Assembly: GCA_046597065.1 (NCBI GenBank)
Contig: JBKJLI010000003.1
Coordinates: 2,807 to 66,806, forward strand
Direction: 5' to 3'
Length of the DNA: 64,000 nucleotides
DNA from: Candidatus Saccharimonadia bacterium
GTDB lineage: Bacteria > Patescibacteriota > Saccharimonadia > UBA4664 > SCTI01
The notes beneath the pieces are model-generated. The model ran no database searches. It had not been told where the DNA came from and was given only the letters and a program-made list of their open reading frames with translations. Numbering within the stretch: position 1 is the stretch's first letter; each line of letters begins with the position of its first letter. A program made the position numbers and the translations under genes. Shown in pieces: positions 27,011 through 32,341 of this stretch.

Positions 27011-27104
27011 GTTTAATACTCCCTACTCCCATCATAACAAAAACGACACTTTCAAGTCGTTTAAGTATAAGTGCAATGGCTCCGGTTCCTACAGGATGTT
27101 AGAA
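27011..27104 (-). repeat. Leader module copy R3 (AGTTCTAAC...CCGGAGCCATTGCACTTATACTT-AAACGACTT-GAAA-GTGTCGTTT-TTGTTATGATGGGAGTAGGGAG...)
   Basis: Near-identical to the tRNA-proximal copy R1. Includes a GGGAG RBS 10 nt before the ATG. Confidence 0.75.
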
Positions 27105-27641
27105 CTATTCACTCAGGTGTTTGAGCAAAAATACCGCCGAGTTACCGTACCCGTATTGATAATCGTTAATCCTACCTGCGTTCTGGTACCCGTTCTTTGC
27201 ATAAAAATGGATAACCTTTTCATCGTCTTCATTAGTATAAACAAACATCTTGGTAGCGCTTCGCCCACGAGCTATCTGTTCAGTTGCTTCCAGTAAAAGA
27301 CTCCCAGCTCCCTGGCCGGCAAATTCTGGTTCAATGGCCATTATTACGATTACCCACTTCTCCTCGCCCTCTAAACCATTTATGGGGCTTTCTTGCTGGG
27401 TGTAAACAAAGCCAATAGTTCTGCCATTATTCAAGATGACTACGCATGCTCCACGGTTTGCGCGGATTTGCGCTGCCATTTCGTCAAAAGAGAACCATTC
27501 CGAAATGTTTGCGTCTGACGTTTTCCCGAAGGCACGCTCTGCTATGCTACGAAGTTCTGACATTTGATTATCCGACTTGAGAAGTTCTGTGTGCATACAT
27601 AAATGATACCAAAAAACGACCCTCTTGAGTCGTTTAAGCAT
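27105..27641 (-). CDS. GNAT-family N-acetyltransferase
   Basis: The acetyl-CoA binding region (EPEFAGQGAGSLLLEATEQIAR) is diagnostic of GNAT and occurs with other conserved blocks. The biological start is probably the internal ATG ~27563 (MSELRSIAER...), since the first 26 codons of the track ORF translate the leader-module hairpin. Confidence 0.65.
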   Translation of the reverse strand: MLKRLKRVVFWYHLCMHTELLKSDNQMSELRSIAERAFGKTSDANISEWFSFDEMAAQIRANRGACVVILNNGRTIGFVYTQQESPINGLEGEEKWVIVIMAIEPEFAGQGAGSLLLEATEQIARGRSATKMFVYTNEDDEKVIHFYAKNGYQNAGRINDYQYGYGNSAVFLLKHLSE

Positions 27642-27671
27642 AAGTGTAATGGTTCCTGGTGGTGATGGAAG
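27564..27671 (-). repeat. Leader module copy R2 (AGTTCTAACTTCCATCACCACCAGGAACCATTACACTTATGCTT-AAACGACTC-AAGA-GGGTCGTTT-TTTGG...)
   Basis: Same module with 2-3 substitutions in the tRNA-derived core (GGAACCATTACAC) and loop AAGA. Confidence 0.7.
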
Positions 27672-28328
27672 TTAGAACTTTAGCAGCTGTCTAACTTTCG
27701 GCATGACTTTACTGTATATAAATTCATGGCCATCATCATTTGGGTGGACGCCATCAATTAATAACGCCTCTTCGCCCTTTGCTTTAAACTCATCGTAAAT
27801 TCTGATGCAGGGAATATGATTTTCTCTACATACCGCATGGAGTATTATATTAAATTTCGTTATGCGATCATTATCATAACATTTACCCGTAGAGGAGCTC
27901 TCAAGCGGAGTAGTTTTCCCCTCGTCCACCGGAGGAATCTCGATAAAAAAGATGTTTCTATCACTATATTCTTTAGCCCTAGCCACCAATTTATTGAGCG
28001 AATTTCGATACTCTTCTTCGCTGGTCTCATACTCAATTTTACTTAGGTGTTGCTTCCGATGAAGGGAATCGTTTGTCCCCGTTGCGAATATAAATGCATA
28101 CTCTTCTCCATCCCATAGCCTAGCCTTGGTTTCGTTATCAAATCTTTCTAGAATAAGCTCGGCTGTATTCCCGTCAACACCAAGACTAAACACCTTGTTA
28201 TAGTCTTTTATACCGTTGTCGACTTCGTAGGCTTGGACTGCAGCCTTTACCCTATCGGCCCAACCACCCTTACTATCCCAAAGGCCCTGAGTAATACTGT
28301 CACCGTAAATAAATATGATCATACCCAC
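27672..28328 (-). CDS. SGNH/GDSL-family hydrolase (lipase/esterase/acyl-esterase-like)
   Basis: IFIYGDSITQG (GDS block I), a Gly-containing block, and a C-terminal DGVHPNDDGHEF (DxxH catalytic pair). The track start is GTG (28328). ATG at ~28322 (MIIFIYGDS...) is equally plausible. Confidence 0.7.
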   Translation of the reverse strand: MGMIIFIYGDSITQGLWDSKGGWADRVKAAVQAYEVDNGIKDYNKVFSLGVDGNTAELILERFDNETKARLWDGEEYAFIFATGTNDSLHRKQHLSKIEYETSEEEYRNSLNKLVARAKEYSDRNIFFIEIPPVDEGKTTPLESSSTGKCYDNDRITKFNIILHAVCRENHIPCIRIYDEFKAKGEEALLIDGVHPNDDGHEFIYSKVMPKVRQLLKF

Positions 28329-28374
28329 ATCATAACAAAAACGACCCTTTCGAGTCGTTTAAGTATAAGTGCAA
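28323..28374 (-). repeat. Leader module copy R1, the native tRNA-Asn 3' flank (TTGCACTTATACTT-AAACGACTC-GAAA-GGGTCGTTT-TTGTTATGATGTGGGT)
   Basis: Directly contiguous with the tRNA 3' end (...CCCCGGAGCCA). Hairpin is a 9-bp stem with GAAA (GNRA) loop followed by UUUUUGUU. Confidence 0.75.
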
Positions 28375-28449
28375 TGGCTCCGGGGGCCGGACTCGAACCG
28401 GCAACCTACTGATTAACAGTCAGTTGCTCTACCATTGAGCTACCCCGGA
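28375..28449 (-). tRNA. tRNA-Asn (anticodon GTT), CCA-encoded
   Basis: Minus-strand sequence TCCGGGG-TA-GCTC-AATGGTA-GAGC-A-ACTGA-CTGTTAA-TCAGT-AGGTT-GCCGG-TTCGAGT-CCGGC-CCCCGGA-G-CCA. It has a 7-bp acceptor, D stem GCTC/GAGC, anticodon loop CU-GUU-AA, T loop TTCGAGT and 75 nt. Confidence 0.9.
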
Positions 28450-29898: not shown

Positions 29899-30519
29899 TT
29901 AGTATTTGCGAATCACTCCAATGCAAACTCCCTGTATCTTAATGGGCGTATCAGGCTTAACGATAATCGGAGCATAGGCATCGTTAGCCGGCTGCAGTCG
30001 GATGTGATTCTTTTCTTTAAAGTAGCGCTTTAGGGTAGCCTCTTCGCCATTAATCAGTGCTACCACCATTTCGCCGTTCGAAGGCACCGTCTTTTCTTGA
30101 ATCACCACATAGTCGCCCTCAAAAATACCGTCATTAATCATGGAATCGCCCTTAACTTGCAGCACGTAGGAGTGGCGAGTACCGACCATAAATGGTGGCA
30201 CTTCTAGAGTTTCGGTATGACCCGACATGGTTTGAATTGGTTGGCCGGCCGCAATAAGACCCAGAATTGGTAGGCCCACCGAACGGTCTTCATCAAAATC
30301 GTCTGGGGTGACTATTTGTAGCGAACGAGCCGAATTATCGCTTTTCTTTAATAAGCCCTTAGAAACCAGCGTTTCAACATGATCGGCCACGGTTGCTACC
30401 GATCCTAAGCTAAAAGCTTCGGCAATTTCTCGGTAACTGGGCGCGTAGCCATTAAGCTCGATCGATTGACTAATGTAATCGAGAACCTCTTTTTGTCTTT
30501 TGGTTAATGGCTCGGCCAT
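29899..30519 (-). CDS. lexA: LexA repressor (SOS regulator, S24 peptidase)
   Basis: N-terminal winged HTH (LTKRQKEVLDYI...), cleavage-site region and C-terminal S24 domain (GDSMINDGIFEGDYVVIQ...; VALINGEEATLKRYF with Ser/Lys dyad). Confidence 0.9.
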   Translation of the reverse strand: MAEPLTKRQKEVLDYISQSIELNGYAPSYREIAEAFSLGSVATVADHVETLVSKGLLKKSDNSARSLQIVTPDDFDEDRSVGLPILGLIAAGQPIQTMSGHTETLEVPPFMVGTRHSYVLQVKGDSMINDGIFEGDYVVIQEKTVPSNGEMVVALINGEEATLKRYFKEKNHIRLQPANDAYAPIIVKPDTPIKIQGVCIGVIRKY

Positions 30520-30520
30520 G

Positions 30521-30580
30521 CTCGCCTCCTATGGCTTATGTTCGTTTTTAGTATGGCGAACATTAACCGAACTGTCAAGC
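30521..30580 (-). promoter_or_regulatory. lexA promoter and candidate LexA operator: -35 TTGACA (30574..30579), 18-nt spacer, -10 CATACT (30550..30555), RBS AGGAGG. Inverted repeat ATGTTCG-N12-CGAACAT (30538..30563) straddles the -10, with an additional GTTC-N7-GTTC direct repeat.
   Basis: Minus-strand sequence is GCTTGACAGTTCGGTTAATGTTCGCCATACTAAAAACGAACATAAGCCATAGGAGGCGAGC then ATG. Arms ATGTTCG/CGAACAT are exact reverse complements. Confidence 0.45.
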
Positions 30581-30592
30581 ACCTTAACCGTT

Positions 30593-32341
30593 TTAATTAA
30601 ACTGGGGCGTGGTCACAATCGTAAAGTCAGTACTGGCCTTATAAAAAGTACTGGTTGTATCGGTGCGGATAACCTTACCGCTTAAATCCACCACGTCACG
30701 ATAAAACACCGTTTGCGAAGGCTTGGTGGCATCGGCGTCGCCAGTTACAAAATAAGGCCCCCGTATCACTCCGGTTTTGGTTTTGGTGCCAAATAAACTA
30801 AAAGTTAATGTGGTGCCAGCCATGCGTGTTTGAATCAAAATGTAGCCGGGTGTGTCATTTTTAAACTTTAGATCCACCTGGGGGTAATAAACAGTGGCAT
30901 CAACACCCGGTACGCCATAAGGCGCGGTGTAAAACTCGTTGATGGCAAAGGCATGGTTGGTGCGCTGCACAATTGGCAGTCCGGCGGTTAGGGCCGCCCG
31001 GTACAGCGTGCTCGACACCTGGCACAAACCGCCGCCGTACTGCTTTTCTTCTTTAGTACCAATAATCACTAGTGAGGGTAGGTAGCCCTGGGCCGGTCCA
31101 ACATCGCCCAGTGCCGCCCCAAAACTAAACACCTCACCCGGTTTAATTAAAATGCCATCATAAATTGCCTGCCCCACTCGCACGTTGGTTAATCGCGCCG
31201 CCGAGCTTCCCGGAAAAGTGCTGTACCCCAGCCCGATCTGCTCTTTAAGCCCCAGCGTGTCCAGGTTGCCTTCATTAACCGCCGCCTTGGTGTTAGCTGT
31301 AACCAGGGCGATCGTGCGGTTGCCGTCTGGTTTTCCCAATGTCGCAATAATGCTATCGGTCGCCTTGGCCTCGTCAACTTTCAACCCGTCTTTGCTGGGT
31401 GATTCAACCACCAACTTGCCGCCGGACATCGAAAGCCCGGCGTTTTGAGGCTCGCGATTAACTTTTGCGGCCAGTTGCTGCACAAACACCTCTACCTTTG
31501 GCCGGCTGATAACCAGCTTTACATTGCCCTCATTGGGGTCCTCGTAAAACGATTTCAGGCCGGTTAGCATGTCGGTGCGATAACCGGCAGCGCTAACGTC
31601 TATCCAGCTTATTATCGAGGCTTGATCGATGGTTTGGCTAACCGCCTGCGCCGTGGCCGTTAGCGGCGCCGATACAAAGGTGGCGGCTTGATCTTTGGCC
31701 AGCGCCAAAGTGTCCTCATTAATACTGGGAGTAATTAAATAAACCGGCGCCTTAATTTCGGAATCATCCATTTGGCCAAGGCGCGAATTAATTAACTGCA
31801 CCAACTGCCCGCGGTTAACTCGCTTGCCGGGTTGCGACGGCTTTACCGATACCTGCCCGCCCTCAAAGCTCAACCTGGCATTGGCCACCGGGCTGGTAAC
31901 GTCAGTATCCACTTGGTCCAAAAATGGCGTTAAACTAGTGTCGTTATAGTTAAACCGCTCAATGGAAGAGTTGCGCGCCAAAATTGAGCGAGAATAAATC
32001 TTCAAACGGTTAATTAAACTACCGCTGCGACCGTAATCTAGCGCGGCCTGCGCCGCCGCCTCATCATACTTAATACCCAGGCCCGAAACTGGAATCCGCA
32101 AAGTGGTTTGGTTGTACTGAACCGCAACTTGCTGGCCTTGATAGTCTGCCGCCGCAGTTTTTATGGCCTCTACCGTTGCCGATTTGCTTAAGCCGCCCGC
32201 ATAAACCCCGTTTACGCTGACTCCAGGAAGCACCTTGCCGGCATAAACGCCTGCAAAACCAATTAACCCCAAAACCACAATCACCACGAGGGCAACCCCA
32301 ACGCCTAATAGATAATGAGTTTTAGATGAAAACGGTTGCAT
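30593..32341 (-). CDS. VanW-family protein (membrane-anchored, YoaR-like)
   Basis: N-terminal TM. C-terminal VanW-domain block QYGGGLCQVSSTLYRAALTAGLPIVQRTNHAFAINEFYTAPYGVPGVDATVYYPQVDLKFKND. Confidence 0.7.
   Translation of the reverse strand: MQPFSSKTHYLLGVGVALVVIVVLGLIGFAGVYAGKVLPGVSVNGVYAGGLSKSATVEAIKTAAADYQGQQVAVQYNQTTLRIPVSGLGIKYDEAAAQAALDYGRSGSLINRLKIYSRSILARNSSIERFNYNDTSLTPFLDQVDTDVTSPVANARLSFEGGQVSVKPSQPGKRVNRGQLVQLINSRLGQMDDSEIKAPVYLITPSINEDTLALAKDQAATFVSAPLTATAQAVSQTIDQASIISWIDVSAAGYRTDMLTGLKSFYEDPNEGNVKLVISRPKVEVFVQQLAAKVNREPQNAGLSMSGGKLVVESPSKDGLKVDEAKATDSIIATLGKPDGNRTIALVTANTKAAVNEGNLDTLGLKEQIGLGYSTFPGSSAARLTNVRVGQAIYDGILIKPGEVFSFGAALGDVGPAQGYLPSLVIIGTKEEKQYGGGLCQVSSTLYRAALTAGLPIVQRTNHAFAINEFYTAPYGVPGVDATVYYPQVDLKFKNDTPGYILIQTRMAGTTLTFSLFGTKTKTGVIRGPYFVTGDADATKPSQTVFYRDVVDLSGKVIRTDTTSTFYKASTDFTIVTTPQFN

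What the first reader, a model, noticed from the sequence alone, without database searches (positions are those of the whole stretch)
30521..30600. Non-canonical candidate LexA operator overlapping the lexA -10 element
The lexA promoter (perfect -35 TTGACA, 18-nt spacer, -10 CATACT, AGGAGG RBS) contains an exact inverted repeat ATGTTCG-N12-CGAACAT whose spacer holds the -10 hexamer. The position is classic for autorepression. Immediately adjacent is a GTTC-N7-GTTC direct repeat, which is the alphaproteobacterial-type SOS-box geometry. The Gram-positive Cheo box (GAAC-N4-GTTC) is absent. If LexA here binds a GTTC/GAAC half-site arrangement with unusual spacing, it would define a phylum-specific SOS box. 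The sequence is not found at the recF, dnaN or ABC-F promoters in this window by eye, so the regulon cannot be inferred from this window alone.
Basis: partly seen in the sequence, partly recalled or inferred. Interest (0 to 1): 0.55.

Follow-up and report, generated by a model that had tools for sequence, protein, structure and literature searches.

The report
Direct-repeat LexA operator in lexA promoter

Summary
One detail is wrong: the promoter spacer is 17 nt, not 18. Neither repeat is beyond chance on its own. A perfect 7-nt inverted repeat occurs in about 9% of 80-bp tiles of this window. GTTC-N7-GTTC is expected 1.5 times per window.

Comparison of 19 distinct lexA promoters from relatives (72-92% LexA identity) settles the question.
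- The direct repeat TTCG-N7-TTCG occupies the spacer between TTGACA and the -10 in 18 of 19.
- The distal unit, GTTCG, abuts the -10 in 19 of 19.
- The exact 7+7 inverted repeat exists only in the window.
- Its 5-nt core (GTTCG-N12-CGAAC) is kept in 8 of 19, weakened to CAAAC in 5, and absent in all six of the 72-78% relatives.

Other Patescibacteria and Acidobacteria carry clade-specific repeats with the same 11-bp period at the same place. In Uhrbacteria-like genomes the repeat also precedes a Y-family polymerase gene.

This is therefore a direct-repeat LexA box with the geometry known from Alphaproteobacteria and Acidobacteria, and apparently already described for Patescibacteria. It is not a new long-spacer palindrome. 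I could not establish the regulon within Saccharimonadia. The downstream inverted half-site may be an auxiliary contact limited to this clade. Interest is low.

The parts
29899..30519 (-). lexA coding sequence (206 aa). It has an N-terminal winged-HTH domain and a C-terminal S24 autopeptidase domain. The motifs AAG (Ala91-Gly92), GDSM (Ser126) and TLKR (Lys164) are visible by inspection.
   Evidence: PF01726 3e-19, PF00717 1e-30; 72-92% identical orthologues in Saccharimonadia MAGs.
30525..30530 (-). Ribosome-binding site AGGAGG, 5 nt upstream of the ATG.
   Evidence: Read from the sequence. GGAGG is kept in all close orthologous leaders.
30538..30544 (-). Downstream arm of the inverted repeat (CGAACAT). 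It is an inverted GTTCG half-site starting 5 nt after the -10, around the expected transcription start. It is a possible auxiliary LexA contact or a remnant of a second, reverse-oriented operator.
   Evidence: The core CGAAC at N12 is kept in 8 of 19 promoters, is CAAAC in 5 of 19, and is absent in 6 of 19. Its function is not shown.
30550..30555 (-). -10 hexamer CATACT.
   Evidence: 10 of 12 match with TTGACA, 17-nt spacer. Relatives have the same position and sequence, or TAnnnT.
30556..30572 (-). Proposed LexA operator, GTTCGGTTAATGTTCGC. It is a direct repeat of GTTCG (unit 1 at 30572..30568, unit 2 at 30561..30557) with an 11-bp period. It occupies exactly the 17-nt spacer between -35 and -10.
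   Evidence: TTCG-N7-TTCG is present in 18 of 19 distinct orthologous promoters and unit 2 in 19 of 19. The PSSM score is 23 bits against a next-best 10.7 in the window.
30573..30578 (-). -35 hexamer TTGACA.
   Evidence: It is kept in 18 of the 19 distinct Saccharimonadia lexA promoters compared; the nineteenth (L098) has TTGACC.
30538..30563 (.). The inverted repeat as reported, ATGTTCG-N12-CGAACAT. With mismatches it extends to 12-nt arms (30533..30544 and 30557..30568, 10 of 12 complementary).
   Evidence: The full arms are specific to the window (1 of 19).

Best explanation
The 17-bp spacer of the lexA promoter (GTTCGGTTAATGTTCGC, 30556..30572, - strand) is the LexA operator. It is a head-to-tail repeat of (G)TTCG with an 11-bp period, so both units lie on one face of the helix. 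A LexA dimer bound there lies between and against the -35 and -10 hexamers. It blocks RNA polymerase, so lexA represses itself. After DNA damage, RecA-stimulated self-cleavage at Ala91-Gly92 would release the repression. What is shown: the anatomy, the conservation of the repeat, and its co-variation with the LexA clade. What is inferred: binding, occlusion and cleavage, from what is established for LexA and for direct-repeat LexA boxes in Alphaproteobacteria and Acidobacteria. The inverted repeat arises because an extra inverted GTTCG half-site sits just downstream of the -10. At most this is an accessory element of the immediate clade.
For: (1) The gene is a bona fide LexA.

(2) TTCG-N7-TTCG is present in 18 of 19 distinct Saccharimonadia lexA promoters (72-92% LexA identity), always in the spacer and always in the same orientation. 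The nineteenth (L087) keeps unit 2 plus GG-N5. Only 2 of 2000 shuffled upstream regions contain the pattern. Sequence upstream of -35 is unalignable among these promoters. So is the leader downstream of the conserved block (beyond the -10, or beyond CRAACA in the closest relatives), apart from the ribosome-binding site. The conservation is therefore selective.

(3) Other clades have a different repeated unit at the same place and with the same period:
- GTTCTA-N5-GTTCTA in Uhrbacteria-like Patescibacteria.
- TTCGG/TTTGG in Curtiss-, Davies- and Shapirobacteria.
- TTCG-N7-TTCG in Bryobacterales and Acidipila.
- TTACG or TACGG repeats in Bacteriovoracia.
- Bacilli and Limnocylindria relatives instead show the Cheo palindrome.
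The recognition helix varies in parallel: ATVADH, ATVHEH, STVHVH, ATVHKH versus ATIQSH.

(4) Recurrence outside lexA:
- A perfect GTTCTATTTTTGTTCTA lies immediately (within about 10 nt) upstream of Y-family polymerase genes in L025 and L054.
- dinB lies 1-2 kb downstream of lexA in 13 Patescibacteria loci.
- In the close relative L002, a second site, GTTCGGTTAATATTCGG (17.5 bits), sits 38 nt upstream of an ImmA/IrrE peptidase gene, with no inverted arm.

(5) The motif is not a general promoter feature. No other site in the 64-kb window scores above the shuffle range.

(6) Literature: GTTC-N7-GTTC is the alphaproteobacterial LexA box (PMC8565304, PMC4951493). PMC7739468 lists the Patescibacteria and Acidobacterium studies among cases where LexA recognises direct repeats.
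Against: - There is no binding or expression data.
- No recA, uvr or polymerase promoter from Saccharimonadia could be examined, so recurrence within this clade rests on one non-conserved site (L002).
- Six homologues of that ImmA/IrrE gene in other Saccharimonadales lack the site.
- The PSSM was trained on lexA promoters including this one, so its score here is partly circular.
- In the closest clade (83% LexA identity or more) the block from unit 2 through CRAACA is more conserved than unit 1. The direct-repeat model alone does not explain this.
Confidence: 0.8

Rival explanations
1. One reading: the LexA operator is the palindrome ATGTTCG-N12-CGAACAT. A LexA dimer would contact the two inverted GTTC/GAAC half-sites across the -10, giving a new long-spacer SOS box.
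For: The inverted repeat is exact (7+7) and brackets the -10. The core GTTCG-N12-CGAAC is kept at fixed spacing in 8 of 19 promoters and as CAAAC in 5 more, all within the clade at 83% LexA identity or more.
Against: - The downstream arm is absent in all six promoters of the 72-78% clade, although their LexA recognition helix is nearly the same (ATVAEH versus ATVADH) and they keep the direct repeat.
- There is no compensatory change outside the 5-nt core: L085, L002 and L100 have CGTTCG paired with CGAACA.
- The half-site centres are 17 bp apart, about 1.6 helical turns, which puts them on roughly opposite faces. Known LexA dyads are 8-12 bp apart.
- A 7-nt inverted repeat of this kind occurs by chance in about 9% of 80-bp tiles.
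- The second site in L002 and the dinB sites have no inverted partner.
Confidence: 0.04
2. Composite operator. The direct repeat is the primary site. The inverted half-site at about +1 (with its weak partner) binds a second LexA dimer or an extra monomer. This extends the repressed zone over the transcription start in the window's immediate clade.
For: - In the 83%-or-more clade, GTTCGCCATACTAAA(A/T)(A/C)C(G/A)AACA is conserved as a block while the flanks are randomised.
- 'GG-N5-GTTCG' occurs 7 times in the window. The only two intergenic copies are the two inverted ones in this 73-bp region.
- More distant relatives have a full second direct repeat in reverse orientation downstream of the -10 (L011, L012, L013, L017). 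L006 and L087 have one upstream of the -35.
- Tandem LexA sites are known in Verrucomicrobia (PMC4951493).
Against: - The reverse site scores only about 9 bits, within the chance range for the window.
- Its partner half is not conserved in L081, L085 or L094 (sequences).
- Conservation around +1 could instead reflect transcription-start requirements.
- The position and orientation of the extra copies differ between lineages.
Confidence: 0.13
3. The conserved spacer is not a LexA site. It would be a promoter-intrinsic element or the site of another regulator.
For: No binding data exist, and the spacer lies within the RNA polymerase footprint.
Against: - There is no TGn extended -10.
- The element is absent from every other intergenic region of the window.
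- Its sequence tracks the LexA clade, not the promoter.
- It recurs upstream of dinB in other Patescibacteria.
Confidence: 0.03

Closest known systems
Alphaproteobacterial LexA box GTTC-N7-GTTC (direct repeat), as cited in PMC8565304 and PMC4951493
   Same: The window site GTTCGGTTAATGTTC matches the consensus exactly. It is a head-to-tail repeat with an 11-bp period, it overlaps the lexA promoter, and it autoregulates.
   Different: The clade-wide register here is TTCG(G)-N6/7-TTCG (18 of 19) rather than GTTC (8 of 19). From my own memory, not checked here, the recognition helix (SVATVADH) is unlike the alphaproteobacterial one (SKSGIHRL). That suggests independent or laterally related origins rather than orthologous specificity.
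Acidobacterial LexA box (Mazon et al. 2006, Acidobacterium capsulatum; known here only from the reference list of PMC7739468)
   Same: The promoter-operator architecture is nearly identical. Bryobacterales has TTGACA-CTTCGTTTTTTATTCGCC-TAATAT; Saccharimonadia L008 has TTGACA-CTTCGGCTTTTGTTCGG-TACACT. The LexA proteins are 42-48% identical to the window's LexA. The recognition helix is similar (ATVHKH versus ATVADH).
   Different: It is a different phylum. The second unit is ATTCG rather than GTTCG, and the spacer is 18 nt in some.
Patescibacteria SOS network (Sanchez-Osuna, Barbe and Erill, Environ Microbiol 2017; paper not held)
   Same: It concerns the same superphylum. PMC7739468 cites it among cases where LexA evolved recognition of a direct repeat. 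My survey of Patescibacteria lexA promoters shows such repeats throughout.
   Different: I could not read the consensus or the regulon that paper reports. Whether the Saccharimonadia TTCGG variant and the extra inverted half-site were described there is therefore unknown to me.
Cheo box GAAC-N4-GTTC (Firmicutes, Actinobacteria) and Verrucomicrobia TGTTC-N4-GAACA
   Same: They share the GTTC/GAAC tetranucleotide. The window's inverted repeat reads TGTTC-N14-GAACA, the Verrucomicrobia half-sites moved 10 bp apart.
   Different: Those motifs are palindromes with a 4-nt spacer. No such site occurs in the window or in the 19 promoters. The conserved arrangement here is a direct repeat.

Membership tests
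Direct-repeat LexA box (GTTC-N7-GTTC class) | Two same-orientation GTTC/TTCG units with a 7-nt gap (11-bp period) | tested here: met
   GTTCGGTTAATGTTC at 30558..30572 on the - strand. TTCG-N7-TTCG is in 18 of 19 orthologous promoters.
Direct-repeat LexA box (GTTC-N7-GTTC class) | Located in the promoter of lexA, overlapping RNA polymerase contacts (autoregulation) | tested here: met
   The site fills the 17-nt spacer between TTGACA and CATACT. The placement is the same in all relatives.
Direct-repeat LexA box (GTTC-N7-GTTC class) | Conserved across orthologous promoters while the flanks diverge, and co-varying with the LexA clade | tested here: met
Direct-repeat LexA box (GTTC-N7-GTTC class) | Recurs upstream of other SOS genes (recA, uvr, error-prone polymerases) in the same genome or clade | tested here: inconclusive
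   - No other site in the 64-kb window, which contains no other canonical SOS gene.
- No Saccharimonadia recA or dinB locus could be obtained.
- One extra site lies upstream of an ImmA/IrrE gene in L002, but it is not conserved in six homologous loci.
- In other Patescibacteria the clade's own repeat precedes Y-family polymerase genes (L025, L054).
Direct-repeat LexA box (GTTC-N7-GTTC class) | Specific binding by the cognate LexA protein; derepression on DNA damage | not testable with these tools
   Needs EMSA or footprinting and expression assays.
Cheo box (GAAC-N4-GTTC) | Palindrome GAAC-N4-GTTC in the lexA promoter | tested here: not met
   0 matches in the window and 0 of 19 promoters.
Hypothetical long-spacer palindromic LexA box (ATGTTCG-N12-CGAACAT) | Both arms conserved, with compensatory changes, across orthologous lexA promoters | tested here: not met
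   The exact inverted repeat is in 1 of 19. The 5-nt core is in 8 of 19, weakened in 5 and absent in 6. There is no compensatory change beyond the core.
LexA repressor (protein) | LexA_DNA_bind wHTH plus S24 peptidase domain, with an Ala-Gly cleavage site and a Ser/Lys dyad | tested here: met
   Both Pfam domains score above threshold. The AAG, GDSM and TLKR motifs were read from the translation. Cleavage itself was not tested.

The most novel reading that the evidence does not exclude
In the window's immediate Saccharimonadia clade the lexA operator would be a three-half-site element: two direct GTTCG units in the spacer plus an inverted CGAAC at about +1, at a fixed 12-nt distance. This would be the remnant or a minimal form of the paired, oppositely oriented direct-repeat operators seen flanking the -10 in other Saccharibacteria (L011, L012, L013, L017). 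LexA would then clamp both sides of the -10, either as two dimers or through an asymmetric third contact.
Probability: 0.13. Interest if true: 0.4.

Novelty: new member of a known kind. Interest (0 to 1): 0.2.

Why it matters
The finding gives a concrete, testable operator for LexA in Saccharimonadia, an uncultivated episymbiotic lineage with very small genomes. It provides a 17-bp PSSM (nTTCGGnTTTTGTTCGs) that can be used to read out the SOS regulon from complete genomes. It also shows that the eye-catching palindrome is a by-product of a half-site duplication and not a new recognition mode. The near-identical promoter-operator cassette in Acidobacteria and Saccharimonadia is a small clue about how direct-repeat LexA specificity spread. 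None of this changes current understanding of the SOS response.

Tried and rejected
- **Metagenome scan lost.** A LexA-based scan of metagenome contigs with 10-kb flanks was meant to collect megabases of Saccharimonadia DNA for regulon inference.
- **DNA-pattern scans for the bare operator rejected.** With 14-15 specified bases I estimated hundreds to thousands of chance hits in a terabase-scale collection. This is my own estimate, not a tool result.
- **recA and dinB.** dinB was found only in non-Saccharimonadia Patescibacteria.
- **ImmA/IrrE lead.** I followed the gene that carries a second operator in L002. It has about 70 homologues at 43-63% identity, with Saccharimonadales names wherever a source gives one. 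Six loci examined have no site upstream, so it is not a conserved regulon member.
- **Viral contigs.** The scan with LexA returned one irrelevant 33% match.
- **The 2017 Patescibacteria SOS paper.** It is not in the library by PubMed id or DOI. Searches found only citations of it.
- **RNA hairpin reading of the inverted repeat rejected.** The upstream arm lies upstream of the -10, so it is not in the lexA-promoter transcript. The 96-nt fold does have z = -3.4, but that comes from pairing of the operator with the RBS/start region. That pairing is specific to the window and not conserved in relatives.
- **Extended -10 or general promoter element rejected**.
Full report
**What is there**

lexA lies on the - strand at 29899..30519. 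It encodes 206 aa with the LexA_DNA_bind and Peptidase_S24 domains. The 73-nt intergenic region 30520..30592 follows the stop codon of a VanW/PG_binding_4 gene (30593..32341, -), with no terminator in between.

Read on the lexA strand the region is: TTGACA (30578..30573) – GTTCGGTTAATGTTCGC (17 nt) – CATACT (30555..30550) – AAAAACGAACATAAGCCAT – AGGAGG – CGAGC – ATG.

- the exact inverted repeat ATGTTCG-N12-CGAACAT (30538..30563);
- the direct repeat GTTC-N7-GTTC (30558..30572);
- absence of the Cheo box.

Two details need correction. The spacer is 17 nt, not 18. The direct repeat overlaps the inverted repeat rather than lying next to it, because its second unit is the upstream arm.

**Is it more than chance?**

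Not on the window alone.
- Perfect 7-nt inverted repeats with 3-20 nt spacers occur 115 times in the window, in 71 of 800 80-bp tiles.
- A 5-mer repeated at an 11-bp period occurs 67 times.
- GTTC-N7-GTTC is expected 1.47 times per window.

The decision therefore has to come from comparison with related sequences.

**Organism and comparison set**

The closest LexA genes are in Saccharimonadia/Saccharimonadales MAGs (Patescibacteria, candidate phyla radiation) at 72-92% identity. More distant ones (42-50%) are in other Patescibacteria, Acidobacteria, Bacteriovoracia, Spirochaetes and Bacilli.

I assembled 25 lexA promoters from the close relatives, 19 of them distinct.
- 18 of the 19 have TTGACA; L098 has TTGACC.
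- 18 of 19 have TTCG-N7-TTCG in the spacer on the coding strand. Only 2 of 2000 shuffled upstream regions contain the pattern.
- All 19 have GTTCG[G/C] directly abutting the -10.
- The one exception (L087) keeps TAGCGGTTTTTGTTCGG.
- Sequence upstream of the -35 is not alignable between relatives. Neither is the leader downstream of the conserved block (beyond the -10, or beyond CRAACA in the closest relatives), apart from the ribosome-binding site.

The inverted repeat behaves differently.
- The 7+7 form exists only in the window.
- The core GTTCG-N12-CGAAC is in 8 of 19.
- It is weakened to CAAAC in 5 of 19.
- It is absent in all six promoters of the 72-78% clade.
- Where the base flanking the upstream arm changes (T to C in L085, L002 and L100), the downstream arm does not compensate.

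**Co-variation with the LexA clade**

The same position in lexA promoters of other clades carries a different unit repeated at the same 11-bp period:
- GTTCTATTTTTGTTCTA in Uhrbacteria-like Patescibacteria (about 25 loci, some with two or three tandem units);
- TTCGGGTTTTaTTTGG in Curtiss-, Davies- and Shapirobacteria and in the more distant Saccharibacteria L012 and L017;
- CTTCGTTTTTTATTCGCC in Bryobacterales and Acidipila;
- TTACG or TACGG repeats in Bacteriovoracia.

Bacilli and Limnocylindria relatives instead carry GAAC-N4-GTTC. The presumed recognition helix changes in step: SVATVADH, SLATVHEH, SPSTVHVH, SLATVHKH versus SPATIQSH. This pattern is expected of the repressor's own operator. 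It is not expected of a generic promoter element.

**Recurrence outside lexA**
- In the window, a PSSM built from 12 Saccharimonadia sites scores the lexA operator at 23 bits. The next best hit is 10.7 bits, inside the range of shuffles.
- Apart from lexA the window holds no canonical SOS gene. It contains dnaA-dnaN-recF, the ATP synthase genes, phosphoketolase and cell-envelope genes.
- In the 86%-identical relative L002, a second site GTTCGGTTAATATTCGG (17.5 bits) lies 38 nt upstream of an ImmA/IrrE (Peptidase_M78) gene, 1 kb upstream of lexA. It has no inverted partner.
- Six homologous ImmA/IrrE loci in other Saccharimonadales lack the site, so this is not a conserved regulon member.
- In Uhrbacteria-like Patescibacteria, perfect copies of their own repeat sit immediately (within about 10 nt) upstream of Y-family polymerase genes (L025, L054). 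dinB lies just downstream of lexA in 13 loci.
- I could not obtain recA, uvr or dinB loci from Saccharimonadia. The metagenome scan that would have supplied them was lost to a tool error.

**Mechanism**

The best-supported reading is that a LexA dimer binds the head-to-tail GTTCG repeat that forms the promoter spacer. This occludes RNA polymerase and gives classical autorepression. RecA-stimulated self-cleavage would relieve it; the Ala91-Gly92, Ser126 and Lys164 motifs are present.

Anatomy, conservation and co-variation are shown. Binding, occlusion and cleavage are inferred from established LexA biology and from the direct-repeat boxes of Alphaproteobacteria and Acidobacteria (PMC8565304, PMC4951493, PMC7739468).

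**The inverted half-site**

One thing remains unexplained. In the clade at 83% identity or more, the block GTTCGCCATACTAAA(A/T)(A/C)C(G/A)AACA is more conserved than unit 1 of the direct repeat.

Points that make a function plausible:
- In the window, 'GG-N5-GTTCG' occurs twice in inverted orientation within this 73-bp region, out of only 7 copies in 64 kb.
- More distant lineages have a complete second direct repeat in reverse orientation downstream of the -10 (L011, L012, L013, L017). L006 and L087 have one upstream of the -35.
- The downstream CGAACA may therefore be a vestigial or auxiliary LexA contact over the transcription start.

Points against:
- Its half-site centre is 17 bp from unit 2, which is unsuitable for a single dimer.
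- Its putative partner is not conserved.
- Conservation near +1 has other possible causes.

I give this composite reading about 0.13.

**Comparison with known systems and novelty**

The site matches the alphaproteobacterial consensus GTTC-N7-GTTC letter for letter. Its architecture is almost identical to that of acidobacterial lexA promoters.

PMC7739468 cites the 2017 Patescibacteria SOS study among cases in which LexA evolved recognition of direct repeats. I could not read that paper. I therefore cannot say whether the TTCGG register of Saccharimonadia or the extra half-site was described there.

On the evidence here, this is a new instance of a known kind of operator. It is not a phylum-specific long-spacer palindrome.

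**Verdict**

Interest is low (0.2). The practical yield is a usable motif for regulon prediction in Saccharimonadia.

Noticed in passing
L014, L020 (Bryobacterales) versus L008-L010 (Saccharimonadia), about 60 nt upstream of lexA: The lexA promoter-operator cassettes of Acidobacteria and Saccharimonadia are nearly superimposable: TTGACA-CTTCGTTTTTTATTCGCC-TAATAT versus TTGACA-CTTCGGCTTTTGTTCGG-TAATAT. The proteins are 42-48% identical to the window's LexA. This hints at a common origin or lateral transfer of lexA together with its operator.
   Followed up: partly
L002:1410-1976: An ImmA/IrrE (Peptidase_M78) gene plus a 145-aa partner lie just upstream of lexA. They are preceded by a LexA-type direct repeat, GTTCGGTTAATATTCGG. 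The two-gene pair is widespread in Saccharimonadales, but six other loci lack the site.
   Followed up: yes
L025:4920-6291, L054:4243-5587; also L023, L024, L029, L033, L035, L037-L039, L042, L055, L068: In Uhrbacteria-like Patescibacteria a Y-family polymerase (IMS/dinB-like) gene lies 1-2 kb downstream of lexA. In two loci it has its own perfect GTTCTATTTTTGTTCTA box; in the others it is probably co-transcribed with lexA.
   Followed up: partly
L023:2480, L031:2544, L033:2516: In several Patescibacteria a 23S_rRNA_IVP four-helix-bundle gene sits between the LexA box and lexA, so the box controls a two-gene unit.
   Followed up: partly
L032, L071, L073, L077 and L059, L067, L072, L076, L079 (Bacteriovoracia), lexA upstream: These lexA promoters carry direct repeats (CTTACGCAAAACTTACGC, or two tandem copies of TACGGAAAAA(G/A)TACG). 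This differs from the short palindrome TTAC-N3-GTAA quoted for Bdellovibrio in PMC8565304.
   Followed up: no
window 27024-27085, 27597-27658, 28322-28383: There are three copies of a 62-nt repeat (94% and 65% identity to the reference copy). The repeat contains a terminator-like hairpin (AAACGAC...GTCGTTT). The last copy overlaps the 3' end of tRNA-Asn (28375..28449, -). The copies bracket a GNAT-like ORF and a GDSL-like ORF (my reading of the translations; no family search was run on them). The arrangement looks like small cassettes inserted next to the tRNA.
   Followed up: partly
window 30622-30659: A second perfect 7-nt inverted repeat with a 12-nt spacer (CAGTACT-N12-AGTACTG) lies inside the 3' end of the VanW gene, about 70 nt from the lexA operator. 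It overlaps a direct repeat, AGTACTGG, with an 18-nt period. It is probably chance or coding-related.
   Followed up: no
window 30505-30600 (- strand): As RNA, this stretch folds with z = -3.4. The operator GUUCGGUUAAUGUUCGCC pairs with the RBS/start region GGCGAGCAUGGCCGAGC. This would matter only for read-through transcripts from the VanW gene. The complementarity is not conserved in relatives.
   Followed up: partly
Genome-contig loci L011, L025, L027, L029-L031, L034, L039, L042, L046, L047, L053, L055, L064: Many MAGs titled 'uncultured Gammaproteobacteria' carry LexA proteins and direct-repeat operators indistinguishable from those of Uhrbacteria or other Patescibacteria. The record titles are probably taxonomic mislabels.
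   Followed up: no
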